Shown one piece after another: positions 28,496 to 48,001 of a stretch of DNA of 64,000 nt. The position numbers and the translations under genes were made by a program. The notes beneath the pieces are model-generated. The model had not been told where the DNA came from and did not search any database. It worked only from the letters and a program-made list of their open reading frames with translations. The DNA is from Thermodesulfobacteriota bacterium (GTDB lineage: Bacteria > Desulfobacterota_D > UBA1144 > Nemesobacterales > UBA2774), in NCBI GenBank assembly GCA_963422265.1, contig OY729416.1, positions 277,681 through 341,680 of the forward strand. The letters are read 5' to 3'. Numbering within the stretch: the stretch's first letter is position 1; each line of letters begins with the position of its first letter.

Positions 28496-31400
28496 GTGAA
28501 ACTGAATGGAGCACCAAATGCGGACGTGACCGTAACAGTCCGTAATAATTTCCCTGATGAAATCACCGTCTCCCCGGCCTCCCTGACCTTTACCACCAGC
28601 GACTGGAATACCCCGCAGAGGGTCACCGTCACCGTCTTGGATAACCAGGTCGATAATGGCGATCAACGTACCATTCTTGTCTGGCATTTGCCGACCGGTG
28701 GTGGCTACGGTTCTCAGCAGAACACTAATATAACAGTGCAATATAACGACAACGACACCGCCGGCGTCACCGTCACCGAGACCGGTGACAGCACTGCCAC
28801 CACCGAAGCCGGCGGCACCGACACCTTCACGGTCGTGCTGAACACCGAGCCGTTAGAGGGTGTCAGAATCGCCGTATCCAGTTCCGACATCAGTGAAGGT
28901 ACGGTTGACAAGAGCAGCCTGACCTTCACCGCAGCCAACTGGGATACGGTACAGACCGTCACCGTCACCGGTCAGGATGACAGCCTGGTTGACGGGGATC
29001 GAGCCTATAACATCGTACTGGCCAAGGTCGTCAGCACTGATACCAACTACCACGGCATTGACCCAGCGGACGTATCGGTGACCAACACCGATGATGACGC
29101 CGGCGTTACGTTATCCAAGAGCAGTGTCACCGTCACCGAAGCCAGTGGCAACAGTAATACCAACACCTACACTGTAGTACTGGACGCCCAACCCTCGGGC
29201 ACCGTCACCGTCACCCTCACCAGCGGCGATACCAGCGTGGCCAGAGTCTCCCCGGCCTCCCTGACCTTTACCACCAGCGACTGGAATACCGCACAGCAAG
29301 TCACCGTCACTGGGGTGGACGACAGCACCGATGAGGACCGCAGCACCACCATCACCCATACAATCAGTGGTGGGGGATACGGCTCAGTGAGCATAGCCGA
29401 CGTCGCCGTCACCCTGACCGATGACGATACCGCCCGCGTCACGCCGCCGAGCAAGCCCACCGGACTCGAGGCAGTGGGGGGCGACAGTCAGGTGACGTTG
29501 ACCTGGAATAATCCGAATAACGCCGCCATCACCGGGTATCAGATCAGGCAGCGGAGTTATGTCAACGGGGCATGGACTAAATTTCCTAAATTTTCTAACA
29601 TAATACCGGGCAGTGATGCCAGCACCACTAGCCACGTGGTGAGTGGTCTGACCAACGGCGTGAGGTATAGTTTCCAAATCCGTGAGATGGTGGGCAAAAA
29701 GGGAGGGAAACCGTCTGAGGCCAAAGCGACACCGGCGGCCCCGCCACCGCCGAAACCGAGCAAGCCCACCGGCCTCAGGACAGTAGCAGGGAACAATCAG
29801 GCGACGTTGATCTGGAATAATCCGAATAACGCCGCCATCACCAAGTATCAGTATAAGCAGTGGAATTCATCGTCTACCGAGAGCGGCGCGAAGTGGGCTG
29901 ACATACCGGGCAGTGATGCGAACACCACCAGCTACGTGGTGAGTGGTCTGACCAACACCTCTGTTATCTATAGATTCCGCATCCGTGCGGTGGCAGGCCC
30001 CTCTGTCGGGCTTCAGTCCAGCTCTGCCGGTGCGATCATTGCGGTACCGCCTGCTGCGCCTGTCGTGACGGCGACGCCGGGCGACGCTCAGGTGAGGTTA
30101 AGTTGGTCGGGGAGCATAGGCTATTATATCACCAGGTATCAGATCAAGCAGTGGACGGGCAGTAGCGAGCCGGCCAATGGCTGGAAGGACATTCCCGGGA
30201 GTCGATCGAGCACCACCAGCCACGTGGTTAGGGGTCTGACCAGCGGCGTGAGTTACAGTTTCCGCATCCGTGCGGTGGCAACATGTAGTTTTAATTCTGG
30301 GAGATTCATAGCTTCTGATTGCAGCGTTGCGGGGACGCCGTCCACTCCCGTCAGTCCGACGCTTGTGCCGGGCAAGCCTGTCGTGGCGCCAATGCCGGGC
30401 GACGCTCAGGTGACGTTGAGTTGGAGTAATCCGAATGATGTTGCCATCACCAAGTATCAGATCAAGCAGTGGACTGGCAGTAGCGAGAGTGGGAGCTGGA
30501 CTGACATATCGGGGAGTGGATCGAGCACCACCAGCCATGTGGTGAGTGGCCTGACCAGCGGCGTGAGGTATAGTTTCCGTATTCGTGCGGTGGCAGGTAC
30601 CAATGTTGCAGGGACGCCGTCCGATCCCGTCAGGGCAGTACTCCTGGACAAGCCTGTCGTCAGTGCCAGTGCGGGCGACACTCTGGTGACGTTGAGTTGG
30701 AGTGATCCGAATGACGATTCCATCACCAGGTATCAGATCAAGCAGTGGACTGGCAGTAGCGAGAGAGGGCGTTGGACTGACATATCGGGGAGTGGATCGA
30801 GCACCACCAGCCTCGTGGTGGGGCGCCTGACCAACGGCGTGAGGTATAGTTTCCGTATCCGTGCAATGGTGGGTCTTTTCCCGGGGGTGGAGTCAGCTTC
30901 CGTCAGTTCGACGCCTGTGCCGGGCAAGCCTGCCGTGACGGCGACGCCGGGCACCGCTCAGGTGACGTTAAGCTGGAGTAATCCGAATGATGCTTCCATC
31001 GCCAGGTATCAGATCAAGCAGTGGACTGGCAGTAGCGAGAGTGGGAGTTGGACTGACATATCGGGGAGTGGGGAGGACACCACCAGCCACGTGGTGAGGG
31101 GTCTGACCAACGGCGTTGAGTATAGTTTCCGTATCCGTGCGGTGACAGGTACCAACGCTTCAGGGACGCCGTCCGATCCCGTCAGTGAGACGCCAGCGGT
31201 ACAGCCGGACAAGCCTGCTGTTACAGCGGCGCCGGCGGGCGACAGTCTGGTGAGGTTGAGTTGGAGTAATCCGAATGACGCTTCCATCACCGGGTATCAG
31301 ATCAAGCGGTGGACTGGCAGTAGCGAGAGTGGGAGTTGGACTGACATATCGGGGAGTGGGAAGGACACGATCACATACACGGTACCGGGTCTGACCAACG

Positions 31401-34400
31401 GCGTTGAGTATAGTTTCCGTATCCGTGCGATGGCAGGTCGTGTTCCAGGGATGGAGTCGGATGTCGCCAGCGCGACGCCTGTGGCAGACAAGCCTATCGT
31501 TACGGCGACGCCGGGCAACGCTCTGGTGACGTTAAGCTGGAGTAATCCGAATGACGCTTCTATCACCGGGTATCAGATCAAGCAGTGGACTGGCAGTAGC
31601 GAGAGTGGGAGTTGGACTGACATATCGGGGAGTGGGGAGGACACCATCAGCCACGTGGTGAGTGGTCTGACCAACGGCGCCAGGTATGGTTTCCGTATCC
31701 GTGCGATGGTAGGCGCTGTTACAAGGACGCCGTCCGATCCCGTCAGTGCGACGCCTGTGTCGCCGCCTGTCGGACTCACGGCGACGCCGGGAGACTCTCA
31801 GGTGACGTTGACCTGGAATAATCCGAACAATCCCACCATCACCGGGTATCAGCTCAAAAAGTATCGTTTCACGATTGAGACCGGTTTTAACGAGGGTTCT
31901 TGGACTGACATACCAGGGAGTGGAAAGGACACCACCAGCTACGTGGTAACGAGTCTGACCAACGGCGCCAGGTATGGTTTCGAGATTCGTGCGGTGGTAG
32001 GCAGTGTTACAGGAGAGGAGTCCGAGTTCGTGCCCGTCACCCTGAGCAGCATCTTCACCATTACCGGGACGGTGACCCAGGGAGAGACACTGACCGCGGA
32101 TACCAGCACGATCTCCGACCCCGACGGCCCGAAGAGTCTGACGTTCACCTACCAATGGAAGCGCGGCGGGACTGCCATAGGCGGTGCCACCGGCCGCACC
32201 TACGTTCTGACGCAGGCCGACGTCGGGAAGGCTATCACCGTCATCGTGAGCTGGACCAATGCTCGTGGGACATTAAAGTCTCTCACCTCGACTGCGACTG
32301 CGAACGTGGCGAACGTGAATGAATCACCAACCGGGGCCGTTACCATCACCGGCACCGCCACCAGGGGACAGACGTTGACTGCGGATACCAGCACGATCGT
32401 CGACCCGGACGGCCCTGCCCGTCTGACGTTCACCTATCAATGGAATCGCGGCGGGACTGCCATAGGCGGTGCCACCGGCCGCACCTACGTTCTGACGCCG
32501 GCCGACGTCGGGAAGGCCATCAGCGTCACCGTGAGCTGGACCGATGCTGGCAGCACCGCGGAGTCATTCATCTCTGCTGCTACCACGAGTGTAACAAACA
32601 CCAACCAATCACCGACCGGGGCCGTCGCCATCACCGGCACCGCCACCCAGAAGCAGACACTGACCGCGGTTACCAGCACGATCGTCGACCCGGACGGCCC
32701 CAGCAGTCTAACGTTCAGCTACCAGTGGAACCGCGATGGGTCTGCCATCAGCAGTGCCACCGGCAGCACCTACGTGCTGACGCAAGCCGACGTCGGGGCC
32801 AAGATCACCGTCACCGTGAGCTGGACCGATGCTGGCAGCACCGCGGAGTCGTTCAACTCTGCTGCGACGGCGAAGGTGGCGAACGTGAATGACCTGCCGA
32901 CCGGGGCCGTCACCATCACCGGCACCGTCACCCAGAAGCAGACGTTGACCGCGGTGACCAGCACGATCTCCGACCCGGACGGCCCGAGTAATTTGGTTTT
33001 TAGCTATCAATGGAAGCGAGATGGGAATAACATCAGCAGCGCCACCGGCCGCACCTACGTTCTGACGCAGGCTGACGTCGGGAAGGCCATCATCGTCACC
33101 GTGAGCTGGACCGATGCTTATGGGGCATCAGAGTCTCTCACCTCTGCTGCGACAGCGAAGGTGGTGAACGTGAACGACCGGCCGACCGGGGCCGTCACCA
33201 TCACCGGCACCCCCATCCAGGGACAGATACTGACCGCGGACACCTCCGGCATTTCCGACCCGGACGTCCCTGACACTGACAGTCTGACCTTTACCTACCA
33301 GTGGACGCGTGGCCCGGATACTGTCAGCCGCACCAGCACTTACACCCTGACGCAGGCTGACGTCGGGGAGATCATCACCGTAGTCGTGGCTTATCAAGAT
33401 GGTGGGCGTAGGCAGCTTTTCCTTGCTAGAACTCCAAAGGTAGCGAACCTAAACGACGCACCGACCGGGGCCGTTACCATCACCGGCACCCCCACCCAGG
33501 GAGAGACACTGACCGCGGTGACCAGCACGATCTCCGACCCGGATGGCCCGAGTGATTTGGTGTTCAGCTACCAGTGGAAGCGCGATAGGATTGCCATCAG
33601 CAGCGCCACCGGCAGCACCTACACCCTGACGCAAGCCGACGTCGGGAAGGCCATCAGCGTCATTGTGAGCTGGACCGATGCTGGCAGCACCGCGGAGACC
33701 CTCACCTCTGTTGCTACCGCGAGTGTAACCAACATAAACGACTCACCGACCGGCAGCGTCACCATCACCGGCACCGTGACCCAGGGCCAGACACTGACCG
33801 CAGACACCTCCGGCATCTCCGACCCCGACGGCCCCGCCAGTCTGACCTTCAGCTACCAATGGAAACGCGATGGGTCTGACATCAGCAGTGCCACCAGTAG
33901 AACCTACATTCTGACGCAAGCCGACGTCGGGAAGGCCATCAGCGTCACCGTCAGCTGGACCGATGCCGGCAGCATCGTGGAGACCCTCACCTCTGCTGCG
34001 ACAGCGAACGTAGCGAACCTAAACGACTCGCCGACCGGTAGCGTCACCATCAGCGGCACGGTGACCCAGGGCCAGACCCTGACCGCAGTGACCAGCACGA
34101 TCGTCGACCCGGACGGCCCGGCCAGTCTGACCTTCAGCTACCAATGGAAACGCGATAGCACTGACATCAGCAGTGCCACCAGTAGAACCTACATTCTGAC
34201 GCAAGCCGACGTCGGGAAGGCCATCACCGTCATCGTGAGTTGGACCGATGCCGGCAGCATCGTGGAGACCCTTACCTCGACTGCGACAGCGAAGGTGGCG
34301 AACATGAATGACCCGCCGACCGGGGCTGTCACCATCAGCGGCACCGTGACCCAGGGCCAGACCCTGACCGCGGTGACCAGCACGATCGTCGACCCCGACG

Positions 34401-37400
34401 GCCCCAGCAGTCTAACCTTCACCTACCAATGGAACCGTGGCGGGAATCCCATCAGCAGCGCCACCGGCAGCACCTACACCCTGACACAAGCCGACGTCGG
34501 TAAGGCCATCAGCGTCATTGTGAGCTGGACCGATGCTGGCAGCACCGCGGAGACCCTCACCTCGGCGGCGACAGCGAACGTAACCAACGCGAACGATCCG
34601 CCGACCGGGGCTGTCACCATCAGCGGCACCGTGACCCAGGGCCAGACACTGACCGCAGACACCTCCGGCATCTCCGACCCCGACGGCCCCAGCAATCTGA
34701 CGTTCACCTACCAATGGAAGCGCGATGGGTCTGACATCAGCAGTGCCACCAGTAGAACCTACATTCTGACGCAAGCCGACGTCGGGAAGGCTATCACCGT
34801 CATCGTGAGTTGGACCGATGCCGGCAGCATCGTGGAGACCCTCACCTCTGCTGCGACAGCGAACGTAGCGAACCTAAACGACTCGCCGACCGGTAGCGTC
34901 ACCATCAGCGGCACGGTGACCCAGGGCCAGACCCTGACCGCAGTGACCAGCACGATCGTCGACCCGGACGGCCCGGCCAGTCTGACCTTCAGCTACCAAT
35001 GGAAACGCGATAGCACTGACATCAGCAGTGCCACCAGTAGAACCTACATTCTGACGCAAGCCGACGTCGGGAAGGCTATCACCGTCATCGTGAGTTGGAC
35101 CGATGCCGGCAGCATCGTGGAGACCCTTACCTCGACTGCGACAGCGAAGGTGGCGAACATGAATGACCCGCCGACCGGGGCTGTCACCATCAGCGGCACC
35201 GTGACCCAGGGCCAGACCCTGACCGCGGTGACCAGCACGATCGTCGACCCCGACGGCCCCAGCAGTCTAACCTTCACCTACCAATGGAACCGTGGCGGGA
35301 ATCCCATCAGCAGCGCCACCGGCAGCACCTACACCCTGACACAAGCCGACGTCGGTAAGGCCATCAGCGTCACCGTGAGTTGGACCGATGCCGGCAGCAT
35401 CGTGGAGACCCTCACCTCGGCGGCGACAGCGAACGTAACCAACGCGAACGATCCGCCGACCGGGGCGGTCACCATCACCGGCACCGTGACCCAGGGCCAG
35501 ACACTGACCGCGGATACCAGCACGATAGTTGACCCGGACGGCCCGGCCAGTCTGACCTTCAGCTACCAATGGAAACGCGATAGCACTGACATCAGCAGTG
35601 CCACCAGTAGAACCTACATTCTGACGCAAGCCGACGTCGGGAAGGCTATCACCGTCATCGTGAGTTGGACCGATGCCGGCAGCATCGTGGAGACCCTCAC
35701 CTCTGCTGCGACAGCGAACGTAGCGAACCTAAACGACTCGCCGACCGGTAGCGTCACCATCAGCGGCACGGTGACCCAGGGCCAGACCCTGACCGCAGTG
35801 ACCAGCACGATCGTCGACCCGGACGGCCCGGCCAGTCTGACCTTCAGCTACCAATGGAAACGCGATAGCACTGACATCAGCAGTGCCACCAGTAGAACCT
35901 ACATTCTGACGCAAGCCGACGTCGGGAAGGCTATCACCGTCATCGTGAGTTGGACCGATGCCGGCAGCATCGTGGAGACCCTTACCTCGACTGCGACAGC
36001 GAAGGTGGCGAACATGAATGACCCGCCGACCGGGGCTGTCACCATCAGCGGCACCGTGACCCAGGGCCAGACCCTGACCGCGGTGACCAGCACGATCGTC
36101 GACCCCGACGGCCCCAGCAGTCTAACCTTCACCTACCAATGGAACCGTGGCGGGAATCCCATCAGCAGCGCCACCGGCAGCACCTACACCCTGACACAAG
36201 CCGACGTCGGTAAGGCCATCAGCGTCACCGTGAGTTGGACCGATGCCGGCAGCATCGTGGAGACCCTCACCTCGGCGGCGACAGCGAACGTAACCAACGC
36301 GAACGATCCGCCGACCGGGGCGGTCACCATCACCGGCACCGTGACCCAGGGCCAGACACTGACCGCGGATACCAGCACGATAGTTGACCCGGACGGCCCG
36401 GCCAGTCTGACCTTCAGCTACCAATGGAAACGCGATAGCACTGACATCAGCAGTGCCACCAGTAGAACCTACATTCTGACGCAAGCCGACGTCGGGAAGG
36501 CTATCACCGTCATCGTGAGTTGGACCGATGCCGGCAGCATCGTGGAGACCCTTACCTCGACTGCGACAGCGAAGGTGGCGAACATGAATGACCCGCCGAC
36601 CGGGGCTGTCACCATCAGCGGCACCGTGACCCAGGGCCAGACCCTGACCGCAGACACCTCCGGCATCTCCGACCCCGACGGCCCCAGCAATCTGACGTTC
36701 ACCTACCAATGGAACCGTGGCGGGAATCCCATCAGCAGCGCCACCGGCAGCACCTACACCCTGACACAAGCCGACGTCGGTAAGGCCATCAGCGTCACCG
36801 TGAGTTGGACCGATGCCGGCAGCATCGTGGAGACCCTCACCTCGGCGGCGACAGCGAACGTAACCAACGCGAACGATCCGCCGACCGGGGCGGTCACCAT
36901 CACCGGCACCGTGACCCAGGGCCAGACACTGACCGCGGATACCAGCACGATAGTTGACCCGGACGGCCCGGCCAGTCTGACCTTCAGCTACCAATGGAAA
37001 CGCGATAGCACTGACATCAGCAGTGCCACCAGTAGAACCTACATTCTGACGCAAGCCGACGTCGGGGCGGCCATCAGCGTCGCCGTCAGCTGGACCGATG
37101 CCGGCAGCATCGTGGAGACCCTCACCTCTGATGCGACAGCGAACGTAGCGAACCTAAACGACTCGCCGACCGGTAGCGTCACCATCAGCGGCACGGTGAC
37201 CCAGGGCCAGACCCTGACCGCAGTGACCAGCACGATCGTCGACCCGGACGGCCCGGCCAGTCTGACCTTCAGCTACCAATGGAAACGCGATAGCACTGAC
37301 ATCAGCAGTGCCACCAGTAGAACCTACATTCTGACGCAAGCCGACGTCGGGGCGGCCATCAGCGTCGCCGTCAGCTGGACCGATGCCGGCAGCATCGTGG

Positions 37401-39310
37401 AGACCCTTACCTCGACTGCGACAGCGAAGGTGGCGAACATGAATGACCCGCCGACCGGGGCTGTCACCATCAGCGGCACCGTGACCCAGGGCCAGACCCT
37501 GACCGCGGTGACCAGCACGATCGTCGACCCCGACGGCCCCAGCAGTCTAACCTTCACCTACCAATGGAACCGTGGCGGGAATCCCATCAGCAGCGCCACC
37601 GGCAGCACCTACACCCTGACACAAGCCGACGTCGGTAAGGCCATCAGCGTCACCGTGAGTTGGACCGATGCCGGCAGCATCGTGGAGACCCTCACCTCGG
37701 CGGCGACAGCGAACGTAACCAACGCGAACGATCCGCCGACCGGGGCGGTCACCATCACCGGCACCGTGACCCAGGGCCAGACACTGACCGCAGACACCTC
37801 CGGCATCTCCGACCCCGACGGCCCCAGCAATCTGACGTTCACCTACCAATGGAAGCGCGATGGGTCTGACATCAGCAGTGCCACCAGTAGAACCTACGTT
37901 CTGACGCAGGCCGACGTCGGGAAGGCCATCAGCGTCATTGTGAGCTGGACCGATGCTGGCAGCACCGCGGAGACCCTCACCTCTGCTGCGACAGCGAACG
38001 TAACCAACGCGAACGATCCGCCGACCGGGGCTGTCACCATCACCGGCACCGTGACCCAGGGCCAGACACTGACCGCGGATACCAGCACGATAGTTGACCC
38101 CGACGGCCCCGCCAATCTGACGTTCACCTACCAATGGAAGCGCGATGGGTCTGACATCAGCAGTGCCACCAGTAGAACCTACGTTCTGACGCAGGCCGAC
38201 GTCGGGAAGGCCATCAGCGTCATTGTGAGCTGGACCGATGCTGGCAGCACCGTGGAGACCCTCACCTCTGCTGCGACAGCGAACGTAACCAACGCGAACG
38301 ATCCGCCGACCGGCAGCGTCACCATCAGCGGCACCGTGACCCAGGGCCAGACCCTGACCGCGGATACCAGCACGATAGTTGACCCCGACGGCCCCGCCAG
38401 TCTGACGTTCACCTACCAATGGAAGCGCGATGGGTCTGACATCAGCAGTGCCACCAGTAGAACCTACATTCTGACGCAAGCCGACGTCGGGAAGGCTATC
38501 ACCGTCATCGTGAGCTGGACCGATGCCGGCAGCATCGTGGAGACCCTTACCTCGGCGGCGACAGCGAAGGTGGTGAACGTGAACGACCCGCCGACCGGCA
38601 GCGTCACCATCACCGGCACCGTGACCCAGGGCCAGACACTGACCGCGGATACCAGCACGATAGTTGACCCCGACGGCCCCGCCAGTCTGACGTTCACCTA
38701 CCAATGGAAGCGCGATGGGTCTGACATCAGCAGTGCCACCAGTAGAACCTACGTTCTGACGCAGGCCGACGTCGGGAAGGCCATCAGCGTCATTGTGAGC
38801 TGGACCGATGCTGGCAGCACCGTGGAGACCCTCACCTCTGCTGCGACAGCGAACGTAACCAACGCGAACGATCCGCCGACCGGCAGCGTCACCATCAGCG
38901 GCACCGTGACCCAGGGCCAGACCCTGACCGCGGATACCAGCACGATAGTTGACCCCGACGGCCCCGCCAATCTGACGTTCACCTACCAATGGAAGCGCGA
39001 TGGGTCTGACATCAGCAGTGCCACCAGTAGAACCTACGTTCTGACGCAGGCCGACGTCGGGAAGGCCATCAGCGTCATTGTGAGCTGGACCGATGCTGGC
39101 AGCACCGTGGAGACCCTCACCTCTGCTGCGACAGCGAACGTAACCAACGCGAACGATCCGCCGACCGGCAGCGTCACCATCAGCGGCACCGTGACCCAGG
39201 GCCAGACCCTGACCGCGGATACCAGCACGATAGTTGACCCCGACGGCCCCGCCAGTCTGACGACCTACCAATGGAAGCGCGATGGGTCTGACATCAGCTG
39301 CCACCAGTAG
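28496..39310 (+). CDS. Giant repetitive surface adhesin-like protein, main 3604-aa ORF: beta-sandwich domains, 11 fibronectin type III domains, then about 25 tandem 95-aa repeats
   Basis: Continuous 10.8-kb ORF. FN3 consensus P..L.A..GD.QVTLSW..PND..ITGYQIKQW......W.DI.GS...TTS..V.GLTNGV.YSFRIRAV. 95-aa unit PTGAVTITGTVTQGQTLTADTS.I.DPDGP..LTF.YQWKR.G..ISSAT..TY.LTQADVGK.I.V.VSWTD.GS..E.L.S.AT..V.N.ND. Confidence 0.8.
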   Translation: MKLNGAPNADVTVTVRNNFPDEITVSPASLTFTTSDWNTPQRVTVTVLDNQVDNGDQRTILVWHLPTGGGYGSQQNTNITVQYNDNDTAGVTVTETGDSTATTEAGGTDTFTVVLNTEPLEGVRIAVSSSDISEGTVDKSSLTFTAANWDTVQTVTVTGQDDSLVDGDRAYNIVLAKVVSTDTNYHGIDPADVSVTNTDDDAGVTLSKSSVTVTEASGNSNTNTYTVVLDAQPSGTVTVTLTSGDTSVARVSPASLTFTTSDWNTAQQVTVTGVDDSTDEDRSTTITHTISGGGYGSVSIADVAVTLTDDDTARVTPPSKPTGLEAVGGDSQVTLTWNNPNNAAITGYQIRQRSYVNGAWTKFPKFSNIIPGSDASTTSHVVSGLTNGVRYSFQIREMVGKKGGKPSEAKATPAAPPPPKPSKPTGLRTVAGNNQATLIWNNPNNAAITKYQYKQWNSSSTESGAKWADIPGSDANTTSYVVSGLTNTSVIYRFRIRAVAGPSVGLQSSSAGAIIAVPPAAPVVTATPGDAQVRLSWSGSIGYYITRYQIKQWTGSSEPANGWKDIPGSRSSTTSHVVRGLTSGVSYSFRIRAVATCSFNSGRFIASDCSVAGTPSTPVSPTLVPGKPVVAPMPGDAQVTLSWSNPNDVAITKYQIKQWTGSSESGSWTDISGSGSSTTSHVVSGLTSGVRYSFRIRAVAGTNVAGTPSDPVRAVLLDKPVVSASAGDTLVTLSWSDPNDDSITRYQIKQWTGSSERGRWTDISGSGSSTTSLVVGRLTNGVRYSFRIRAMVGLFPGVESASVSSTPVPGKPAVTATPGTAQVTLSWSNPNDASIARYQIKQWTGSSESGSWTDISGSGEDTTSHVVRGLTNGVEYSFRIRAVTGTNASGTPSDPVSETPAVQPDKPAVTAAPAGDSLVRLSWSNPNDASITGYQIKRWTGSSESGSWTDISGSGKDTITYTVPGLTNGVEYSFRIRAMAGRVPGMESDVASATPVADKPIVTATPGNALVTLSWSNPNDASITGYQIKQWTGSSESGSWTDISGSGEDTISHVVSGLTNGARYGFRIRAMVGAVTRTPSDPVSATPVSPPVGLTATPGDSQVTLTWNNPNNPTITGYQLKKYRFTIETGFNEGSWTDIPGSGKDTTSYVVTSLTNGARYGFEIRAVVGSVTGEESEFVPVTLSSIFTITGTVTQGETLTADTSTISDPDGPKSLTFTYQWKRGGTAIGGATGRTYVLTQADVGKAITVIVSWTNARGTLKSLTSTATANVANVNESPTGAVTITGTATRGQTLTADTSTIVDPDGPARLTFTYQWNRGGTAIGGATGRTYVLTPADVGKAISVTVSWTDAGSTAESFISAATTSVTNTNQSPTGAVAITGTATQKQTLTAVTSTIVDPDGPSSLTFSYQWNRDGSAISSATGSTYVLTQADVGAKITVTVSWTDAGSTAESFNSAATAKVANVNDLPTGAVTITGTVTQKQTLTAVTSTISDPDGPSNLVFSYQWKRDGNNISSATGRTYVLTQADVGKAIIVTVSWTDAYGASESLTSAATAKVVNVNDRPTGAVTITGTPIQGQILTADTSGISDPDVPDTDSLTFTYQWTRGPDTVSRTSTYTLTQADVGEIITVVVAYQDGGRRQLFLARTPKVANLNDAPTGAVTITGTPTQGETLTAVTSTISDPDGPSDLVFSYQWKRDRIAISSATGSTYTLTQADVGKAISVIVSWTDAGSTAETLTSVATASVTNINDSPTGSVTITGTVTQGQTLTADTSGISDPDGPASLTFSYQWKRDGSDISSATSRTYILTQADVGKAISVTVSWTDAGSIVETLTSAATANVANLNDSPTGSVTISGTVTQGQTLTAVTSTIVDPDGPASLTFSYQWKRDSTDISSATSRTYILTQADVGKAITVIVSWTDAGSIVETLTSTATAKVANMNDPPTGAVTISGTVTQGQTLTAVTSTIVDPDGPSSLTFTYQWNRGGNPISSATGSTYTLTQADVGKAISVIVSWTDAGSTAETLTSAATANVTNANDPPTGAVTISGTVTQGQTLTADTSGISDPDGPSNLTFTYQWKRDGSDISSATSRTYILTQADVGKAITVIVSWTDAGSIVETLTSAATANVANLNDSPTGSVTISGTVTQGQTLTAVTSTIVDPDGPASLTFSYQWKRDSTDISSATSRTYILTQADVGKAITVIVSWTDAGSIVETLTSTATAKVANMNDPPTGAVTISGTVTQGQTLTAVTSTIVDPDGPSSLTFTYQWNRGGNPISSATGSTYTLTQADVGKAISVTVSWTDAGSIVETLTSAATANVTNANDPPTGAVTITGTVTQGQTLTADTSTIVDPDGPASLTFSYQWKRDSTDISSATSRTYILTQADVGKAITVIVSWTDAGSIVETLTSAATANVANLNDSPTGSVTISGTVTQGQTLTAVTSTIVDPDGPASLTFSYQWKRDSTDISSATSRTYILTQADVGKAITVIVSWTDAGSIVETLTSTATAKVANMNDPPTGAVTISGTVTQGQTLTAVTSTIVDPDGPSSLTFTYQWNRGGNPISSATGSTYTLTQADVGKAISVTVSWTDAGSIVETLTSAATANVTNANDPPTGAVTITGTVTQGQTLTADTSTIVDPDGPASLTFSYQWKRDSTDISSATSRTYILTQADVGKAITVIVSWTDAGSIVETLTSTATAKVANMNDPPTGAVTISGTVTQGQTLTADTSGISDPDGPSNLTFTYQWNRGGNPISSATGSTYTLTQADVGKAISVTVSWTDAGSIVETLTSAATANVTNANDPPTGAVTITGTVTQGQTLTADTSTIVDPDGPASLTFSYQWKRDSTDISSATSRTYILTQADVGAAISVAVSWTDAGSIVETLTSDATANVANLNDSPTGSVTISGTVTQGQTLTAVTSTIVDPDGPASLTFSYQWKRDSTDISSATSRTYILTQADVGAAISVAVSWTDAGSIVETLTSTATAKVANMNDPPTGAVTISGTVTQGQTLTAVTSTIVDPDGPSSLTFTYQWNRGGNPISSATGSTYTLTQADVGKAISVTVSWTDAGSIVETLTSAATANVTNANDPPTGAVTITGTVTQGQTLTADTSGISDPDGPSNLTFTYQWKRDGSDISSATSRTYVLTQADVGKAISVIVSWTDAGSTAETLTSAATANVTNANDPPTGAVTITGTVTQGQTLTADTSTIVDPDGPANLTFTYQWKRDGSDISSATSRTYVLTQADVGKAISVIVSWTDAGSTVETLTSAATANVTNANDPPTGSVTISGTVTQGQTLTADTSTIVDPDGPASLTFTYQWKRDGSDISSATSRTYILTQADVGKAITVIVSWTDAGSIVETLTSAATAKVVNVNDPPTGSVTITGTVTQGQTLTADTSTIVDPDGPASLTFTYQWKRDGSDISSATSRTYVLTQADVGKAISVIVSWTDAGSTVETLTSAATANVTNANDPPTGSVTISGTVTQGQTLTADTSTIVDPDGPANLTFTYQWKRDGSDISSATSRTYVLTQADVGKAISVIVSWTDAGSTVETLTSAATANVTNANDPPTGSVTISGTVTQGQTLTADTSTIVDPDGPASLTTYQWKRDGSDISCHQ
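29440..32040 (+). repeat. Array of 11 FN3-domain-coding repeats, about 270-290 bp each, moderately diverged
   Basis: Periodic protein motif in the 28496..39310 ORF. Confidence 0.75.
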
Positions 39311-40140
39311 AACCTACATTCTGACGCAAGCCGACGTCGGGAAGGCTATCACCGTCATCGTGAGCCGCATCGTGGAGACCCTTACCTCGGCGGCGACCGA
39401 AGGTGGTGAACGGAACGACCCGCGACCGGCAGCGTCACCATCACCGGGTGACCCAGGGCCAGACACTGACGGATACCAGCACGATAGTTGACCCCGACGG
39501 CCCCGCCAGTCTGACGTTCACCTACCAATGGAAGCGCGATGGGTCTGACATCAGCAGTGCCACCAGTAGAACCTACGTTCTGACGCAGGCCGACGTCGGG
39601 AAGGCCATCAGCGTCATTGTGAGCTGGACCGATGCTGGCAGCACCGCGGAGACCCTCACCTCTGCTGCGACAGCGAACGTAACCAACGCGAACGATCCGC
39701 CGACCGGGGCTGTCACCATCACCGGCACCGTGACCCAGCAATCTGACGTTCAGCTACCAATGGAAGCGCGATGGGTCTGACATCAGCAGTGCCACCAGTA
39801 GAACCTACGTTCTGACGCAGGCCGACGTCGGGAAGGCCATCAGCGTCATTGTGAGCTGGACCGATGACCGCGGAGACCCTCACCTCTGATGCGACAGCGA
39901 ACGTAACCAACGCGATCCGCCGACCGGGGCGGTCACCATCACCGGCACCGTGACCCAGGGCCAGACACTGACACCTCCGGCATCTCCGACCCCGACGGCC
40001 CCAGCAATCTGACGTTCAGCTACCAATGGAAGCGCGATGGGTCTGACATCAGCAGTGCCACCAGTAGAACCTACGTTCTGACGCAGGCCGACGTCGGGAA
40101 GGCCATCACCGTCACCGTCAGCTGGACCGACAGCGGCGGT
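32040..40140 (+). repeat. Tandem 285-bp (95-aa) repeat array A, about 28 units including 855-bp higher-order repeats that are near-identical at the DNA level
   Basis: Antisense ORFs recur at exact 285- and 855-bp spacing (e.g. 33904, 34759, 35614). Long stretches (33961-34250 versus 34816-35105) are identical. Confidence 0.85.
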
Positions 40141-40254
40141 ACCGCGGAGACCCTCACCTCTGCGGCTACTTCGGTCGCCGGCGTCACGTTATCCACGAGA
40201 GCGGTCACCGTCACCGAAGCCAGTGGCAGCAGTAATACCAACACCTACACCGTA
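39230..40254 (+). pseudogene. Degenerate or collapsed segment of repeat array A: several short ORFs in different frames. Relative to neighbouring copies it differs by many 1-17 nt deletions and almost no substitutions.
   Basis: E.g. cagacactgacacctccggc versus canonical cagacactgaccgcagacacctccggc; tgagccgcatcgtggagaccc versus tgagctggaccgatgccggcagcatcgtggagaccc. Confidence 0.5.
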
Positions 40255-43200
40255 GTGCTCGACACCCAACCCTCGGGCAACGTCACCGTCACGCCCACCA
40301 GCGGCGATAGCGACGTGGCGACCGTATCCCCGGTCTCCCTGACGTTTACCACGAGCAACTGGAGTACGGCACAGATCGTCACCGTCACCGGTGTGGACGA
40401 CAGCAGCGATGGTGATAGAAGTACCACCATCACCCATGCAGCCTCTGGTGGTGGCTACGACTCAGTGGTCATTGCCAGCGTCAGTGTAACGCTGACCGAT
40501 GACGACACCGCCGGTGTCACCGTGTCCGAGAGCGGTGTCACGGTAACCGAAGCCAGTGGCAGCAGTAATACCAACACCTACACCGTAGTACTCAACACCC
40601 GGCCGAGTGGCAACGTCACCGTCACGCCGACCAGCGGCGATACCAATGTGGCGACCGTATCTGGGGCCCTGACCTTTACCACCAGCAACTGGAGTACGGC
40701 ACAGTCCATCACCGTCACCGGTGTGGACGACAGCAGCGATGGTGATAGAAGCACCACCATCACCCATGCAGCCTCTGGCGGCGGCTACAACGCAGTGGTC
40801 ATCTCCGACGTAGCGGTAACGCTGACCGATGACGACACCGCCGGTGTCACCGTGTCCGAGAGCAGCGTCACGGTAACCGAAGCCAGTGGCAGCAGTAATA
40901 CCAACACCTACACCGTAAAACTTAACACCCGGCCGAGTGGCACCGTCACCGTCACGCCCACCAGCGGCGATAGCGACGTGGCGACCGTATCCCCGGTCTC
41001 CCTGACGTTTACCACGAGCAACTGGGGTACGGCACAGTCCATCACCGTCACCGGTGTGGACGACAGCAGCGATGGGGATAGAAGCACCACCATCACCCAT
41101 GCAGCCTCTGGCGGCGGCTACAACGCAGTGGTCATCTCCGACGTAGCGGTAACGCTGACCGATGACGATAACAACTCGCCGACGGGTTCGGTAACCATTA
41201 CTGGGGCGGCGACGCAGGGGCAGAGGCTTACGGCAGATACCAGCACGATCGTTGATCCAGACGGTCCGAGTAATCTGACGTTCAGCTATCAATGGAAGCG
41301 GGGCGGGACTGACATCAGCGGGGCGACCAGTAGCACCTACGTTCTAACACAGGCGGACGTCGGTTCTATGATCACAGTAGTAGTGAGTTGGACGGACAGC
41401 GGTAGTACAGTGGAATCTCTGACCTCTGCTGCTACAGCAAGTGTAGCGAACTTAAACGACTTGCCGACTGGTGCAGTAACCATTACGGGGACGGTGACGC
41501 AGGGGCAGACACTGACCGCGGATACCGGCACGATTGTTGACCCAGACGGTCCGAGTAATCTGACGTTCAGCTATCAATGGAAGCGGGGTGGGACTGATAT
41601 CAACGGGGCGACCAGTAGCACCTACGTTCTGACACAGGCGGACGTAGGTTCTGTGATCACAGTAGTAGTGAGTTGGACGGACGCTGGTGGGGCATCGGAA
41701 TCCCTCACCTCTGCTGCTACAGCAAGTGTGGCAAACACCAACAACTTGCCGACTGGTGCAGTAACCATTACTGGGACGGTGACGCAGGGGCAGACGCTTA
41801 CGGCGGATACCGGCACGATCGTTGATCCAGACGGTCCGAGTAGTCTGACGTTCAGCTATCAGTGGAAGCGAGGTGGGACTGATATCAGCGGGGCGACCAG
41901 TAGCACCTACGTTCTGACACAGGCGGACGTCGGTTCTGTGATCACAGTAGTAGTGAGTTGGACGGACAGCGGTAGTACAGTGGAGACTCTTACCTCTGCT
42001 GCTACAGCAAGTGTAGCGAACGTAAACGACTTGCCGACTGGTGCGGTAACCATCACCGGGACGGCGACCCAGGGCCAGACACTGACCGCGGATACCAGCA
42101 CGATTGTTGACCCAGACGGTCCGAGTAATCTGACGTTCAGCTATCAGTGGAAGCGAGGTGGGACTGACATCAGCGGGGCGACCAGTAGCACCTACGTTCT
42201 GACACAGGCGGACGTCGGTTCTGTGATCACAGTAGTAGTGAGTTGGACGGACAGCGGTAGTACAGTGGAGACTCTTACCTCTGCTGCTACAGCAAGTGTA
42301 GCGAACGTAAACGACTCGCCGACTGGTGCAGTCACCATCACCGGCACGGCGACCCAGGGCCAGACACTGACCGCGGATACCAGCACGATCGTTGATCCAG
42401 ACGGCCCGAGTAATCTGACGTTCAGCTATCAATGGAAGCGAGGTGGGACTGACATCAGCGGCGGCGCCAGTAGCACCTACGTTCTGACACAGGCGGACGT
42501 CGGGGCGGCAATCACCGTCACTGTGAGCTGGACTGACGCTGGTGGGGCATCGGAATCTCTTACCTCTGCTGCTACAGCAAGTGTAGCGAACGTAAACGAC
42601 TTGCCGACTGGTGCGGTAACCATTACGGGGACGGCAACCCAGGGGCAGACACTGACCGCGGATACCAGCACGATTGTTGACCCAGACGGTCCGAGTAATC
42701 TGACGTTCAGCTATCAATGGAAGCGGGGTGGGACTGACATCAGCGGGGCGACCAGTAGCACCTACATTCTGACACAGGCGGACGTCGGTTCTGTGATCAC
42801 AGTAGTAGTGAGTTGGACGGACGCTGGTGGGACATCGGAATCCCTCACCTCTGCTGCTACAGCAAGTGTAGCGAACGTAAACGACTTGCCGACTGGTGCG
42901 GTAACCATTACGGGGACGGCAACCCAGGGGCAGACGCTTACAGCGGATACCGGCACGATCGTTGATCCAGACGGTCCGAGCAGTCTGACGTTCAGCTATC
43001 AATGGAAGCGAGGCGGGACTGATATCAACGGGGCGACCAGTAGCACCTACATTATGACACAGGCGGACGTCGGTTCTGTGATCACAGTAGTAGTGAGTTG
43101 GACGGACAGCGGTAGTACAGTGGAATCTCTGACCTCTGCTGCTACAGCAAGTGTAGCGAACGTAAACGACTCGCCGACTGGTGCGGTAACCATTACGGGG

Positions 43201-45618
43201 ACGGCGACCCAGGGCCAGACACTGACCGCGGATACCGGCACGATTGTTGACCCAGACGGTCCGAGTAATCTGACGTTCAGCTATCAATGGAAGCGAGGCG
43301 GGACTGACATCAGCGGCGCCACTACTAGCACCTACGTTCTGACACAGGCGGACGTAGGTTCTGTGATCACAGTAGTAGTGAGTTGGACGGACGCTGGTGG
43401 GGCATCGGAATCTCTTACCTCGACTGCCACTGCGAAGGTGATTAACATCAGCGGTGCTGACTCTGGCACGATTATTGATGTAGTAGAGGACGGTGGTCGC
43501 AGCATCATCACGGCAACGGTTGACGAGACGGCTGTGAAGCTGACGCTGCCATCTGGACACGGCGTGACGGAGATTGAGTTTTCACCGGCGGCGCCCACTG
43601 TTACTGAGCCGTCGGGCGTGAGCTTTGGGGGTAAACCGTCTTACGTGGATATAGATCTGGACGTGGAGCTCTCGTCATCATCAAGTGCCATCGTCTGTCT
43701 GGAGGAGCCCGAAGAGCTGTCAGGTAATCTATCGGTATATCATCTTGCCGATGTAGAAGGTGCGGGGTGGAGGAAGCTGCCGTCGCCTGCATCGGTGCCC
43801 AGCGGTTATGTATGCGGTAAAACGAGTAGTTTTTCTACTTTTGTATTGGGTTCGCCAAAGCCGACTTTCGGTTCAGAATCCATTGGGGACTATGTCTGGA
43901 CGGTTGGTGTGGAAGTTGTTGATGTTGTTCTACCTGAGGCTACTGGTGGTGACGGTGTTATTACCTACAGTCTGAGACCGTCTCTACCATTGGATCTTAA
44001 GTTTAATGATGATTCTCCTCGCGCTATCACTGGCAAGCCGACTGAGGCGTTAGCTAAGACGAAGTTCACCTACAAGGCTGAGGACGTAGATGGCGATACA
44101 AGTGAGTTGTCATTTAGCATAACGGTTCGTGCAGCCGAGGAAAAGGAGCGAGCGCGTGTTCTTTCTGTAGTGTTAGCTTCTTTTGGACGGGCAGCTGCAA
44201 CCGGAGCGGTGGACGTAATAGGTGAACGTTTTGTTTCTTCTTCTTCTCTGGCAGGTAGTCCTAAATTGACATTGGGTGGTGTTTCTATGACATCGTTTGA
44301 CACTCGTTCTGTGGCAGGAGCTGTGGATGGGGTGTTGGGTCTGAGTGGTGGTTCAGATATTGAATTGTTGGAGGGTTTAGATCGAGAGCCTGTTGAGTTA
44401 CGGCGTGTTTCTGGGAGGGATTTGTTTGCGCAGAGCGAATTTTCTATTCCTTTGAGTAGTAGTGGTGATATGGGAGGAGTGATGCGAGGTTGGACGTTAT
44501 GGGGCAGTGGTGCGGGTAGTGGATTTTCTGGTAGTAATTTGGATGGAGATATAGATACAGAGGGTGAGTTGTATACGGGCTACATGGGATTGGACTATAG
44601 GTTTGGTAATAGGGGTTTGGCGGGAGTAGCGATATCTCGTAGTGTTGGAGAGGTGGACTATGAGGTGGATGGTAGCTTTCATCTTATGGGTGGAGAGACA
44701 GGTAGTATCCGAGGGGAGGTAGATTTGGAGTTGACGAGCGTTCTTCCATATGCGCACTACACTATTCGTCCTGGTCTTAGTATATGGGGTTTGTTTGGAG
44801 CGGGTATAGGCGATATTGAGTTGGAGGATGGGGCAGGAGAAGTAGAGGCGGACGTAAATATGCTGATGGTAGCGTTGGGAGTGCGTCAGGAGTTGGCTAG
44901 ATGGGGAGATATAGATTTTGGGTTAAAGAGTGATGGTTTTGCAGTGCAGTTAAAGACAGAGGGGGTGGAAGGTCTTTCTGGTGTTAGTGGAGTAGCGCGT
45001 CGTTTGCGATTAGGTTTAGAGATGAGCCGTGACGTGTATGTGACAGGAGATTCTTTGTTGCTACCAAGTGTGGAGATAGGGGGGCGATGGGACGGCGGAG
45101 ATGCGGATAGTGGAGTAGGTATGGAGGTAGGCGGAGGTATAGAGTATGTTCATAGAGGTTTGGGTTTGAGCGTGGAGGTTCGAGGGAGGTATTTGTTGTT
45201 TCATGAGGAGTCTGAGTTTGAGGATTGGGGAGGTAGTTTTTCATTGCGGATGGGTGATGGAGTTCGGGGGCGTGGATTGTGGTTGAAGTTTGAGCCTGAG
45301 TGGGGTGAGGTAGCGAGTGGAGTAGAGCGAATGTGGCGAGGTGAGGTTGATAGTGGGTTAGGAGTAGGGAAGCGGGGTTTATCTCCTGGGCGTGTGAAGT
45401 TTGACGTTGGATATGGTATGGAGACGCGAGGTAGTGGGTGGCTTGTAACGCCGTATAGTGGCGTATCTATTATGAGGGAGGGGGAGCGCGAGTATAGGTT
45501 GGGTGGCAAGGTAGGTGTAGGGGAGTGGATGGATATAAGTTTGGAGGGGGAGCGTCGAGAGGTTTCTAATGGAGTTGTGGATCACGGAATACTATTATGG
45601 TGGAAGCTGTTATTGTAG
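40255..45618 (+). CDS. C-terminal 1787-aa ORF of the giant adhesin: 3 beta-sandwich domains, 8 more 95-aa repeats (array B), a cadherin-like domain and a C-terminal autotransporter-like beta-barrel
   Basis: Frame is open from 39891; the first start codon is a GTG at 40255, inside a domain. The tail GWTLWGSGAGSGFSGSNLDGDIDTEGELYTGYMGLDYRFGNRGLAGVAISRS has a type Va beta-domain-like pattern. YSLRPSLPLDLKFNDDSPRAITGKPTE..FTYKAEDVDGDTS resembles He_PIG/dystroglycan-type cadherin domains. Confidence 0.75.
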   Translation: MLDTQPSGNVTVTPTSGDSDVATVSPVSLTFTTSNWSTAQIVTVTGVDDSSDGDRSTTITHAASGGGYDSVVIASVSVTLTDDDTAGVTVSESGVTVTEASGSSNTNTYTVVLNTRPSGNVTVTPTSGDTNVATVSGALTFTTSNWSTAQSITVTGVDDSSDGDRSTTITHAASGGGYNAVVISDVAVTLTDDDTAGVTVSESSVTVTEASGSSNTNTYTVKLNTRPSGTVTVTPTSGDSDVATVSPVSLTFTTSNWGTAQSITVTGVDDSSDGDRSTTITHAASGGGYNAVVISDVAVTLTDDDNNSPTGSVTITGAATQGQRLTADTSTIVDPDGPSNLTFSYQWKRGGTDISGATSSTYVLTQADVGSMITVVVSWTDSGSTVESLTSAATASVANLNDLPTGAVTITGTVTQGQTLTADTGTIVDPDGPSNLTFSYQWKRGGTDINGATSSTYVLTQADVGSVITVVVSWTDAGGASESLTSAATASVANTNNLPTGAVTITGTVTQGQTLTADTGTIVDPDGPSSLTFSYQWKRGGTDISGATSSTYVLTQADVGSVITVVVSWTDSGSTVETLTSAATASVANVNDLPTGAVTITGTATQGQTLTADTSTIVDPDGPSNLTFSYQWKRGGTDISGATSSTYVLTQADVGSVITVVVSWTDSGSTVETLTSAATASVANVNDSPTGAVTITGTATQGQTLTADTSTIVDPDGPSNLTFSYQWKRGGTDISGGASSTYVLTQADVGAAITVTVSWTDAGGASESLTSAATASVANVNDLPTGAVTITGTATQGQTLTADTSTIVDPDGPSNLTFSYQWKRGGTDISGATSSTYILTQADVGSVITVVVSWTDAGGTSESLTSAATASVANVNDLPTGAVTITGTATQGQTLTADTGTIVDPDGPSSLTFSYQWKRGGTDINGATSSTYIMTQADVGSVITVVVSWTDSGSTVESLTSAATASVANVNDSPTGAVTITGTATQGQTLTADTGTIVDPDGPSNLTFSYQWKRGGTDISGATTSTYVLTQADVGSVITVVVSWTDAGGASESLTSTATAKVINISGADSGTIIDVVEDGGRSIITATVDETAVKLTLPSGHGVTEIEFSPAAPTVTEPSGVSFGGKPSYVDIDLDVELSSSSSAIVCLEEPEELSGNLSVYHLADVEGAGWRKLPSPASVPSGYVCGKTSSFSTFVLGSPKPTFGSESIGDYVWTVGVEVVDVVLPEATGGDGVITYSLRPSLPLDLKFNDDSPRAITGKPTEALAKTKFTYKAEDVDGDTSELSFSITVRAAEEKERARVLSVVLASFGRAAATGAVDVIGERFVSSSSLAGSPKLTLGGVSMTSFDTRSVAGAVDGVLGLSGGSDIELLEGLDREPVELRRVSGRDLFAQSEFSIPLSSSGDMGGVMRGWTLWGSGAGSGFSGSNLDGDIDTEGELYTGYMGLDYRFGNRGLAGVAISRSVGEVDYEVDGSFHLMGGETGSIRGEVDLELTSVLPYAHYTIRPGLSIWGLFGAGIGDIELEDGAGEVEADVNMLMVALGVRQELARWGDIDFGLKSDGFAVQLKTEGVEGLSGVSGVARRLRLGLEMSRDVYVTGDSLLLPSVEIGGRWDGGDADSGVGMEVGGGIEYVHRGLGLSVEVRGRYLLFHEESEFEDWGGSFSLRMGDGVRGRGLWLKFEPEWGEVASGVERMWRGEVDSGLGVGKRGLSPGRVKFDVGYGMETRGSGWLVTPYSGVSIMREGEREYRLGGKVGVGEWMDISLEGERREVSNGVVDHGILLWWKLLL
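41160..43440 (+). repeat. Tandem 285-bp repeat array B (8 units). Same protein repeat as array A but with a different synonymous codon set.
   Basis: E.g. ccgaccggggccgtcaccatcaccggcacc (A) versus ccgactggtgcggtaaccattacggggacg (B); both encode PTGAVTITGT. Confidence 0.8.
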
Positions 45619-47980: not shown

Positions 47981-48001
47981 TATATTCTTGTTGCGCTCCT
48001 T

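What the first reader, a model, noticed from the sequence alone, without database searches (positions are those of the whole stretch)
39230..40000. Deletion-only degenerate segment splits the giant gene
Within about 770 bp the 285-bp repeat copies differ from flanking copies by many 1-17 nt deletions and essentially no substitutions, producing six or more frame changes. Biological decay would also accumulate substitutions. The pattern suggests a collapsed or low-coverage consensus in the repeat, meaning the gene is probably one contiguous ORF with an underestimated repeat number. The alternative is very recent slippage-driven inactivation.
Basis: seen in the sequence. Interest (0 to 1): 0.6.

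Follow-up and report, generated by a model that had tools for sequence, protein, structure and literature searches.

The report
Assembly-damaged repeats in giant adhesin gene
A 0.8-kb stretch near the end of a long repeat array in a huge surface-protein gene carries twelve small deletions and almost no other change, which most likely reflects a local sequence-assembly error rather than real gene decay, so it matters mainly for annotation.

Summary
Repeat landmarks are spaced exactly 285 nt apart through both arrays, but 282, 257, 232 and 266 nt apart here. Compared with their nearest intact sister units, the last four units of array 1 (39170-39975) carry 12 deletions totalling 103 nt. Sizes are 3, 2, 15, 2, 1, 1, 4, 3, 53, 8, 4 and 7 nt. 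There are no insertions and at most one substitution not already present in another unit. The deletions show no microhomology and no homopolymer context, and the same contexts are intact elsewhere in the gene. They all fall within 810 nt, while 16.5 kb of the same reading frame and more than 20 flanking genes are clean. Restoring the 103 nt gives one 5,775-codon ORF. Neutral decay and slippage do not fit this pattern. A local consensus failure in the most self-similar tail of the array fits best (about 0.72), but I could not test it because no reads or independent assembly were available. There is no evidence of an underestimated repeat number. The gene also has five more frameshifts at its 5' end and a poly-C(22) tract, so repairing this segment alone does not make it one ORF.

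The parts
26166..26194 (+). Promoter-like site TTGACA-17-TAAAGT upstream of the giant gene
   Evidence: Consensus scan, 10 of 12 matches. This is only a consensus match, not shown to function.
26221..26242 (+). Poly-C tract of 22 bases. It lies between a possible ATG start (26205) and the signal-peptide coding region.
   Evidence: Sequence read. It is the only homopolymer longer than 9 in the 64-kb window. With C22 the ATG is out of frame with the signal peptide; C20 or C23 would be in frame (read from the sequence).
26270..26359 (+). Alternative TTG start with AGGA upstream, followed by the signal-peptide coding region (MIPRQHLRRLAATLGLIFFIICVLPGTAQA)
   Evidence: ORF list and sequence. The signal peptide was judged by inspection; no predictor was run.
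26348..29415 (+). Three copies of a roughly 1015-bp repeat (three beta-sandwich domains each). They carry five frameshifting indels at about 26873 (+1), 27119/27120 (-2), 28094 (+1), 28107 (+1) and 28393 (-1).
   Evidence: Repeat families, alignment A1, and the tblastn frame path f1 to f2 to f0 to f2 to f1.
29411..32050 (+). Fibronectin type III repeat region, in frame
   Evidence: Pfam fn3, 9 stretches, 248 bits. Tandem repeat of period 276.
32051..39169 (+). Array 1, intact part: 24 units of exactly 285 nt plus one of 279 nt. Each encodes a 95-aa Ig-like domain. The units are in frame and include exact duplicates.
   Evidence: Pfam IG_AIR9, 292 bits. The longest exact repeat is 967 bp at an offset of 855.
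39170..39975 (+). The degenerate block: units 25-28 of array 1 with 12 deletions (103 nt), no insertions and at most 1 private substitution. This is the finding.
39976..40165 (+). Undamaged remainder of the terminal unit of array 1. It is read in frame 0, continuous with the downstream ORF.
40166..41187 (+). Three 330-bp beta-sandwich repeats, in frame
   Evidence: Tandem repeat of period 330, 2.9 copies. Translation.
41188..43467 (+). Array 2: eight intact 285-nt units of the same family, about 75% identical to array 1
   Evidence: dN/dS between the two arrays is 0.12.
43468..45618 (+). Unique C-terminal part: a He_PIG-like Ig domain and an outer-membrane beta-barrel, then the stop codon
   Evidence: Pfam Autotransporter 25.0 bits (cut-off 26) and He_PIG 22.8 bits. 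AlphaFold model with pLDDT 73. The best PDB fold match is the BrkA beta-domain, E 9e-6.

Best explanation
Positions 39170-39975 are four genuine 285-nt repeat units, numbers 25-28 of the first Ig-like repeat array. They belong to a roughly 19.4-kb gene for a giant, autotransporter-like surface protein of about 6,480 aa. Their consensus sequence was most likely corrupted during assembly or polishing. The proposed mechanism is inferred, not shown. This tail of the array is its most self-similar part; neighbouring units differ by only 3-5 nt. Long reads therefore cannot be placed uniquely there. If effective coverage is low, or if the reads and the draft disagree in copy number, each read has to open gaps at arbitrary positions. 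A column-wise or graph-based consensus then drops every column where gaps happen to be in the majority. That process yields scattered deletions of arbitrary length with no insertions, no substitutions and no need for microhomology. It would be confined to one patch, while unique sequence and the rest of the array stay correct. On this reading the split of the gene at 39.3-40.0 kb is not biological.
For: (1) There are 12 deletions, no insertions and at most 1 private substitution. Across all 19 core units of array 1 there is only 1 private base in total. The deletions are therefore practically the only unshared changes in 6.5 kb. (2) There is no microhomology excess (0.54 against 0.62 expected, P=0.67) and no homopolymer context. 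(3) Each junction 16-mer is unique, while the matching intact contexts occur 1-22 times elsewhere in the gene without error. The cause therefore depends on position, not on sequence context. (4) All 12 deletions lie within 810 nt (P about 8e-12). Meanwhile 10.9 kb upstream and 5.6 kb downstream of the block are stop-free in single frames. (5) Restoring the 103 nt from sister units gives one ORF of 5,775 codons with no other lesion. (6) dN/dS between the arrays is 0.12, so the protein was under purifying selection until very recently. (7) More than 20 flanking genes match their family profiles over their full length. The indels are specific to the repetitive gene. (8) The literature reports that errors persist in repeats after polishing (PMC8812927, PMC9980784). 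It also reports that unique frameshifts in long, repetitive adhesin genes of long-read assemblies are frequent and often suspected to be artefacts (bioRxiv 10.1101/2025.09.30.679566).
Against: No reads, quality values or independent assembly could be examined, so this is inference from sequence alone. The usual residual long-read errors are homopolymer-length errors (PMC8812927), and these deletions are not of that type. Deletions of 15 and 53 nt are unusual for simple base-calling error. The core of the array contains exact repeats up to 967 bp. It should be at least as hard to place reads there, yet it is error-free. The damaged units keep coherent, unit-specific variant patterns. The gene has five other frameshifts and a poly-C tract, so it could be a genuinely decaying contingency gene.
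Confidence: 0.72

Rival explanations
1. The inactivation is genuine and very recent, caused by a single mutational burst. One error-prone repair or gene-conversion synthesis tract copied the neighbouring units and skipped template bases 12 times. This left a real deletion-riddled patch that splits the gene.
For: The block is a near-perfect copy of sister units apart from the deletions. That is what a single recent templated event would give. The rest of the assembly is clean. The gene carries other frameshifts and a poly-C tract typical of dispensable or switchable surface genes. Genuine frameshifts do occur in repetitive adhesin genes (PMC8859334).
Against: I know of no bacterial mechanism that produces a dozen untemplated deletions of 1-53 nt in 0.8 kb without substitutions or insertions. 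Microhomology is absent. Known genuine cases are single frameshifts (PMC8859334).
Confidence: 0.13
2. The gene is a pseudogene undergoing ordinary neutral decay with the usual bacterial bias toward deletions.
For: All 12 events are deletions, as a deletional bias would predict. Sizes that are multiples of three are not favoured (3 of 12). The gene has additional frameshifts at its 5' end.
Against: Substitutions should outnumber indels. Even if indels made up 20-30% of neutral events, the probability that at least 12 of 13 events are indels is 4e-8 to 5e-6. Decay should also be spread along the gene. Instead 16.5 kb of it is stop-free and all 12 deletions lie within 810 nt (P about 1e-11 to 1e-14). 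dN/dS between the arrays is 0.12.
Confidence: 0.02
3. Replication slippage (slipped-strand mispairing) within the repeat produced the deletions, as a form of phase variation.
For: The locus is a tandem repeat in a surface-protein gene that also carries a classic slippage-prone poly-C tract.
Against: Slippage in arrays removes whole units, or segments bounded by direct repeats. Here the deletions lie within units, have no microhomology above chance and avoid homopolymers. Twelve independent events within 0.8 kb and none elsewhere in 36 units is not expected.
Confidence: 0.03

Closest known systems
Residual consensus or polishing errors in repeats of long-read bacterial assemblies (PMC8812927, PMC9980784), and unique frameshifts in giant repetitive RTX adhesin genes (bioRxiv 10.1101/2025.09.30.679566)
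   Same: The indels are confined to a very long, highly repetitive surface-protein gene while the unique sequence around it is clean. The frameshifts are unique to their positions. The gene ends up split and absent from protein databases.
   Different: Typical residual errors are single-base homopolymer-length errors. Here the deletions are non-homopolymer, range from 1 to 53 nt, and are densely clustered (about 1 per 60 nt) in one patch.
Genuine frameshift pseudogenes of repetitive autotransporter adhesins, for example Bartonella henselae badA (PMC8859334)
   Same: A modular, highly repetitive outer-membrane adhesin gene with a frameshifted copy, a related copy elsewhere in the genome, and evidence of recombination among the repeats.
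   Different: The badA cases are single frameshift mutations backed by expression data. Here there are 12 deletions without accompanying substitutions in 0.8 kb.
Homopolymer-tract contingency loci (phase-variable surface genes of Neisseria, Haemophilus, Campylobacter and Bordetella; from my own knowledge)
   Same: A poly-C(22) tract lies at the 5' end of the same gene, between a possible ATG and the signal peptide.
   Different: That tract lies 13 kb from the finding. The deletions in the finding are not at simple-sequence tracts.
Type Va (classical) autotransporters with repetitive Ig-like or fn3 passengers
   Same: An N-terminal signal-like sequence, a long repetitive passenger, and a C-terminal outer-membrane beta-barrel. 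The barrel's best fold matches are the BrkA, Hbp, NalP, EspP and AIDA-I beta-domains.
   Different: The Pfam Autotransporter score is just under the cut-off (25.0 against 26 bits). The model shows about 20 strands rather than 12, and also matches TonB-dependent receptors and LptD.

Membership tests
Assembly/consensus artefact in a tandem repeat | Errors are confined to repetitive sequence while unique flanks are accurate | tested here: met
   All 17 frameshifting or deleting indels lie in the repetitive gene. More than 20 flanking genes match their family profiles over their full length.
Assembly/consensus artefact in a tandem repeat | The change pattern is incompatible with the mutational spectrum that shaped the rest of the array | tested here: met
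   The 32 intact units differ by up to 95 substitutions yet all are exactly 285 nt long. The block has 12 deletions and at most 1 private substitution.
Assembly/consensus artefact in a tandem repeat | Abnormal read depth, mapping quality or indel pile-up, with reads that do not reproduce the indels | not testable with these tools
   No reads are available. No independent copy of the locus was found in the genome, metagenome or protein collections.
Neutrally decaying bacterial pseudogene | Substitutions accompany and outnumber indels | tested here: not met
   Zero or one private substitution against 12 deletions. P is at most 5e-6 even if 30% of neutral events were indels.
Neutrally decaying bacterial pseudogene | Lesions are spread along the gene | tested here: not met
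   All 12 deletions lie within 810 nt (P about 1e-11), while 16.5 kb is stop-free.
Slipped-strand mispairing / phase variation | Indels occur at homopolymers or short tandem repeats, or are bounded by direct repeats | tested here: not met
   Mean microhomology is 0.54 nt against a null of 0.62 (P=0.67), and none of the deletions lies in a homopolymer. A separate poly-C(22) tract at 26221-26242 does meet this feature.
Diversity-generating retroelement variable region | Adenine-specific substitutions relative to a template repeat, with a reverse transcriptase gene nearby | tested here: not met
   The changes are deletions, not A-to-N substitutions. None of the window proteins scanned against Pfam or NCBIfam was a reverse transcriptase, but not every ORF was scanned.
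AIR9 A9 Ig-like domain family (Pfam PF23197) | Score above the Pfam gathering threshold | tested here: met
   292.3 bits against a cut-off of 27.5 for the 3604-aa ORF, and 115.7 bits for the downstream ORF.
Type Va autotransporter | C-terminal autotransporter beta-domain (PF03797; a 12-stranded barrel) | tested here: inconclusive
   25.0 bits against a cut-off of 26, covering profile positions 1-103 of 255. The paralog P0001 carries a precomputed PF03797 hit. The best Foldseek hits are the BrkA and Hbp beta-domains (TM 0.53-0.57 by target). The model has about 20 strands and also matches 22-26-strand barrels.
Type Va autotransporter | N-terminal Sec signal peptide | tested here: inconclusive
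   MIPRQHLRRLAATLGLIFFIICVLPGTAQA|AKG has the expected charged, hydrophobic and AXA-type cleavage features on inspection. No signal-peptide predictor was available.

The most novel reading that the evidence does not exclude
The deletions are real and arose in one step. On this reading, a localized burst of untemplated template-skipping occurred during repair or gene-conversion synthesis at the distal end of a concertedly evolving repeat array. It inactivated a 6,480-aa surface protein in a deep-branching bacterium. This would be a deletion-only clustered mutation signature not described for bacteria.
Probability: 0.1. Interest if true: 0.6.

Novelty: not a real feature. Interest (0 to 1): 0.15.

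Why it matters
The main consequence is for annotation. As the sequence stands, the gene is broken into pieces. Its products are absent from the protein collection even though neighbouring proteins from the same contig are present. If the patch is an artefact, a roughly 6,480-aa repetitive outer-membrane protein is being hidden. It would probably be the largest protein of an organism with no close relative among GTDB species representatives (the best PNPase identity is 57%). Repeat counts and pseudogene counts taken from this assembly would also be unreliable at this locus. If the deletions were real, they would point to an unknown clustered-deletion process. The case also gives a simple, reusable diagnostic. 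Within a concertedly evolving array, private indels without private substitutions, without microhomology, and clustered in one patch indicate a consensus error rather than decay.

Tried and rejected
(1) Independent copies of the locus.
- Two genome-contig scans were run. The C-terminal domain found nothing, and PNPase found only relatives at 57% identity or less.
- Two metagenome scans were run, one with protein patterns and one with an exact 30-mer of the repeat. Both found nothing.
- Three protein-database searches used the C-terminal domain, the ORF across the 53-nt junction, and the N-terminal region. They returned only distant relatives and one paralog from a contig of the same length as the window's (P0001, 83% identical).
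- A Logan contig from run ERR11641160 is 99% identical to the flank at 46.9-48.0 kb. No piece of the giant gene from that strain could be found.
- P0001 and the window's own proteins could not be looked up by the look-up of encoding contigs.

(2) Microhomology or slippage: rejected.

(3) Systematic, context-dependent base-calling error: rejected. The same contexts are intact 1-22 times elsewhere in the gene.

(4) A generally error-prone assembly: rejected, because the flanking genes are intact.

(5) Neutral pseudogene decay: rejected on the indel-to-substitution ratio and on clustering.

(6) The block as a spurious exact duplicate of the preceding 855 bp: not supported. Its units carry their own combination of legitimate variants.

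(7) GC-biased gene conversion as the cause of the high GC3: not clearly supported. The less homogenised units 1-4 are as GC3-rich as the core.

(8) A literature search for the run accession returned nothing.
Full report
THE LOCUS. The finding lies inside a very large plus-strand gene that runs from about 26.2 kb to 45,618.

Its parts, in order:
- a promoter-like site (26166-26194)
- a possible ATG at 26205
- a poly-C(22) tract (26221-26242)
- a signal-peptide-like sequence that can be read from a TTG at 26270
- three copies of a roughly 1015-bp repeat
- fibronectin type III repeats
- a first array of 28 units of 285 nt, each encoding a 95-aa Ig-like domain of the AIR9 A9 family (292 bits)
- three 330-bp repeats
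- a second array of eight 285-nt units
- a unique C-terminal part that ends in an outer-membrane beta-barrel

The barrel scores 25.0 bits against the Pfam Autotransporter model, just under the cut-off of 26. An AlphaFold model (pLDDT 73) matches the BrkA autotransporter beta-domain best (E 9e-6). It has about 20 strands and also resembles larger barrels. The gene is 58-64% G+C in a 43% G+C neighbourhood. More than 20 flanking genes match their family profiles over their full length. They include infB, pnp, nusA, nuoF, nuoM, hemA and hisS.

THE OBSERVATION. A conserved 20-mer recurs every 285 nt through both arrays. At 38984-40021 the spacings are 282, 257, 232 and 266 nt. I aligned the region to sister units. 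It contains 12 deletions of 3, 2, 15, 2, 1, 1, 4, 3, 53, 8, 4 and 7 nt between 39262 and 39970, totalling 103 nt, and no insertions.

The four damaged units are recognisable copies of particular unit types. Unit 39170-39430 matches unit 38315 with one substitution. Unit 39431-39707 matches unit 38600 with one substitution. The third unit is of the 38030 type and the terminal one is of the 37745 type. Seven substitutions separate the block from a composite template. Six are variants that also occur in other intact units. The seventh (39366) vanishes if the 15-nt gap is aligned as 11+4.

Nine of the deletions shift the frame. The first eleven sum to 96 nt, so the frame is back in register by 39920. 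The twelfth (7 nt) moves it from frame 1 to frame 0. This produces the ORFs 28496-39310 and 40255-45618. Two details need correcting: the largest deletion is 53 nt, and there are nine frame changes.

WHAT THE PATTERN EXCLUDES.
- Slippage. The deletions have no more flanking microhomology than randomly placed ones (mean 0.54 nt against 0.62, P=0.67). None lies in a homopolymer.
- Systematic, sequence-dependent error. Every junction 16-mer is unique. The corresponding intact contexts occur 1-22 times elsewhere in the same gene without error.
- Ordinary neutral decay.
  - The 19 core units of array 1 contain one private base in total. All other variation is shared among units in mosaic fashion. 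The 12 deletions are thus practically the only unshared changes in 6.5 kb.
  - Even if 20-30% of neutral events were indels, the chance that at least 12 of 13 events are indels is 4e-8 to 5e-6. The chance that all 12 fall within 810 nt is about 1e-11.
  - The 10.9 kb before the block and the 5.6 kb after it are stop-free in single frames.
  - dN/dS between the two arrays is 0.12.
- Other lesions between 28.4 and 45.6 kb. Restoring the 103 nt from sister units gives a single ORF of 5,775 codons from 28394 to 45618.

BEST EXPLANATION. Two kinds of event could give this pattern. One is a one-step biological event of an unknown kind. The other is a fault in building the consensus sequence. I favour the consensus fault (about 0.72).

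The block sits in the most self-similar tail of the array. Units 38030, 38600 and 38885 differ from one another by 3-5 nt. Exact repeats up to 967 bp in the core show that only long reads can have assembled this array. If few reads could be placed uniquely in the tail, or if the reads and the draft differed in copy number, each read would open gaps at arbitrary positions. A majority or graph consensus would then delete the columns where gaps happened to dominate. This accounts for the deletion-only pattern, the lack of substitutions and insertions, the arbitrary lengths, the absence of microhomology, and the confinement to one patch. This mechanism is inferred, not shown.

The literature agrees in general terms. 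Errors in repeats persist after polishing (PMC8812927, PMC9980784). Unique frameshifts in very long repetitive adhesin genes are common in long-read assemblies and are often suspected to be artefacts (bioRxiv 10.1101/2025.09.30.679566).

Four points argue against this view:
- The usual residual long-read errors are homopolymer-length errors, which these are not.
- Deletions of 15 and 53 nt are unusual for base-calling error.
- The core of the array, with its exact duplicates, is clean.
- I had no reads to examine.

RIVALS. A genuine single burst, such as error-prone repair synthesis copying the neighbouring units, cannot be excluded. I give it about 0.13. It has no known mechanism. Genuine frameshifts in comparable genes such as badA are single events (PMC8859334). 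Neutral decay (0.02) and slippage or phase variation (0.03) fail the tests above.

There is no evidence that the repeat number is underestimated. Four units are present and only within-unit bases are missing. The gene is also not one ORF after repairing this block. Alignment of the three 1015-bp copies, together with a tblastn frame path, shows five more frameshifting indels. They lie at about 26873 (+1), 27119/27120 (-2), 28094 (+1), 28107 (+1) and 28393 (-1). The two insertions at 28094 and 28107 lie just after a 172-nt stretch that is identical to the next copy, so they may share the same cause. They include insertions, however, and lie among real substitutions, so I cannot tell. With C22, the ATG at 26205 is out of frame with the signal peptide. 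The TTG at 26270 would bypass that problem.

SEARCH FOR INDEPENDENT DATA.
- The window's ApbC-like protein is in the protein collection on a contig of 1,783,595 bp.
- The giant gene's own products are absent from that collection. That would fit the gene being annotated as a pseudogene at the source, though other reasons for their absence cannot be excluded.
- Genome, metagenome and protein searches gave no second copy of the locus. They found only a paralog (P0001) on a contig of the same length and distant relatives.
- A Logan contig from run ERR11641160 is 99% identical to the flank. A sister strain therefore exists in public reads and could be used for a k-mer test.

VERDICT. The segment is most probably not a biological feature but a local consensus error that splits a giant surface-protein gene. 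Interest is low. The decisive test is read-level inspection, or a junction k-mer count.

Noticed in passing
window 26221-26242: A poly-C tract of 22 bases lies right after a possible ATG start (26205) and a promoter-like site, and just before the signal-peptide coding region of the giant gene. With C22 the ATG is out of frame, and C20 or C23 would restore it. This looks like a phase-variation switch, or else a homopolymer whose assembled length is unreliable. It is the only homopolymer longer than 9 in the window.
   Followed up: partly
window about 26873, 27119/27120, 28094, 28107, 28393: Five further frameshifting indels (+1, -2, +1, +1, -1) lie in the three roughly 1015-bp repeats at the 5' end of the same gene. 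The gene therefore stays fragmented even if the 39.2-40.0 kb block is repaired. The two +1 insertions are 13 nt apart and lie just after a 172-nt stretch identical to the next copy.
   Followed up: partly
window 28400-45615: There is a strong codon-composition gradient within one gene. GC3 is 0.67-0.82 in the passenger repeats, 0.60 in array 2 and 0.44 in the C-terminal barrel. Housekeeping genes have 0.41-0.45. This suggests a mosaic gene with a passenger region imported from a GC-rich donor, or biased gene conversion.
   Followed up: partly
window 33755-39169: The core of array 1 evolves in concert. The 19 units have one private base in total, and several units are identical. There is an 855-bp (3-unit) higher-order repeat with exact repeats up to 967 bp. 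All variation is shared among units in mosaic combinations.
   Followed up: yes
P0001 (on a contig of the same length as the window's, 1,783,595 bp; outside the window): A 1106-aa paralog is 83% identical over the C-terminal barrel region. It begins directly in an fn3 domain without a signal peptide, so it may also be a fragment of a larger broken repetitive gene.
   Followed up: no
window 21253-23382 (pnp) and the whole window: The best PNPase match among GTDB species representatives is only 56-57% identical (Geobacteraceae, Binatia and Nitrospiraceae MAGs). The 95-aa repeat has almost no close relatives in 5.8 billion proteins (2 hits, at most 62% identity). The organism appears to be deep-branching or poorly sampled.
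   Followed up: partly
L082 (Logan contig, run ERR11641160) against window 46885-48010: A short contig from an independent public run is about 99% identical in nucleotides to the flank next to the giant gene. A sister strain therefore exists in public reads. No fragment of the giant gene from it was found in the protein database.
   Followed up: partly
window 45637-45645: A C9 run lies 19 nt after the stop codon of the giant gene. No terminator-like hairpin was looked for there.
   Followed up: no
window 33191-33469: One unit of array 1 is 279 nt (93 codons) instead of 285 nt and is much more divergent than its neighbours. It is an in-frame natural length variant, in contrast with the out-of-frame deletions of the finding.
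   Followed up: partly
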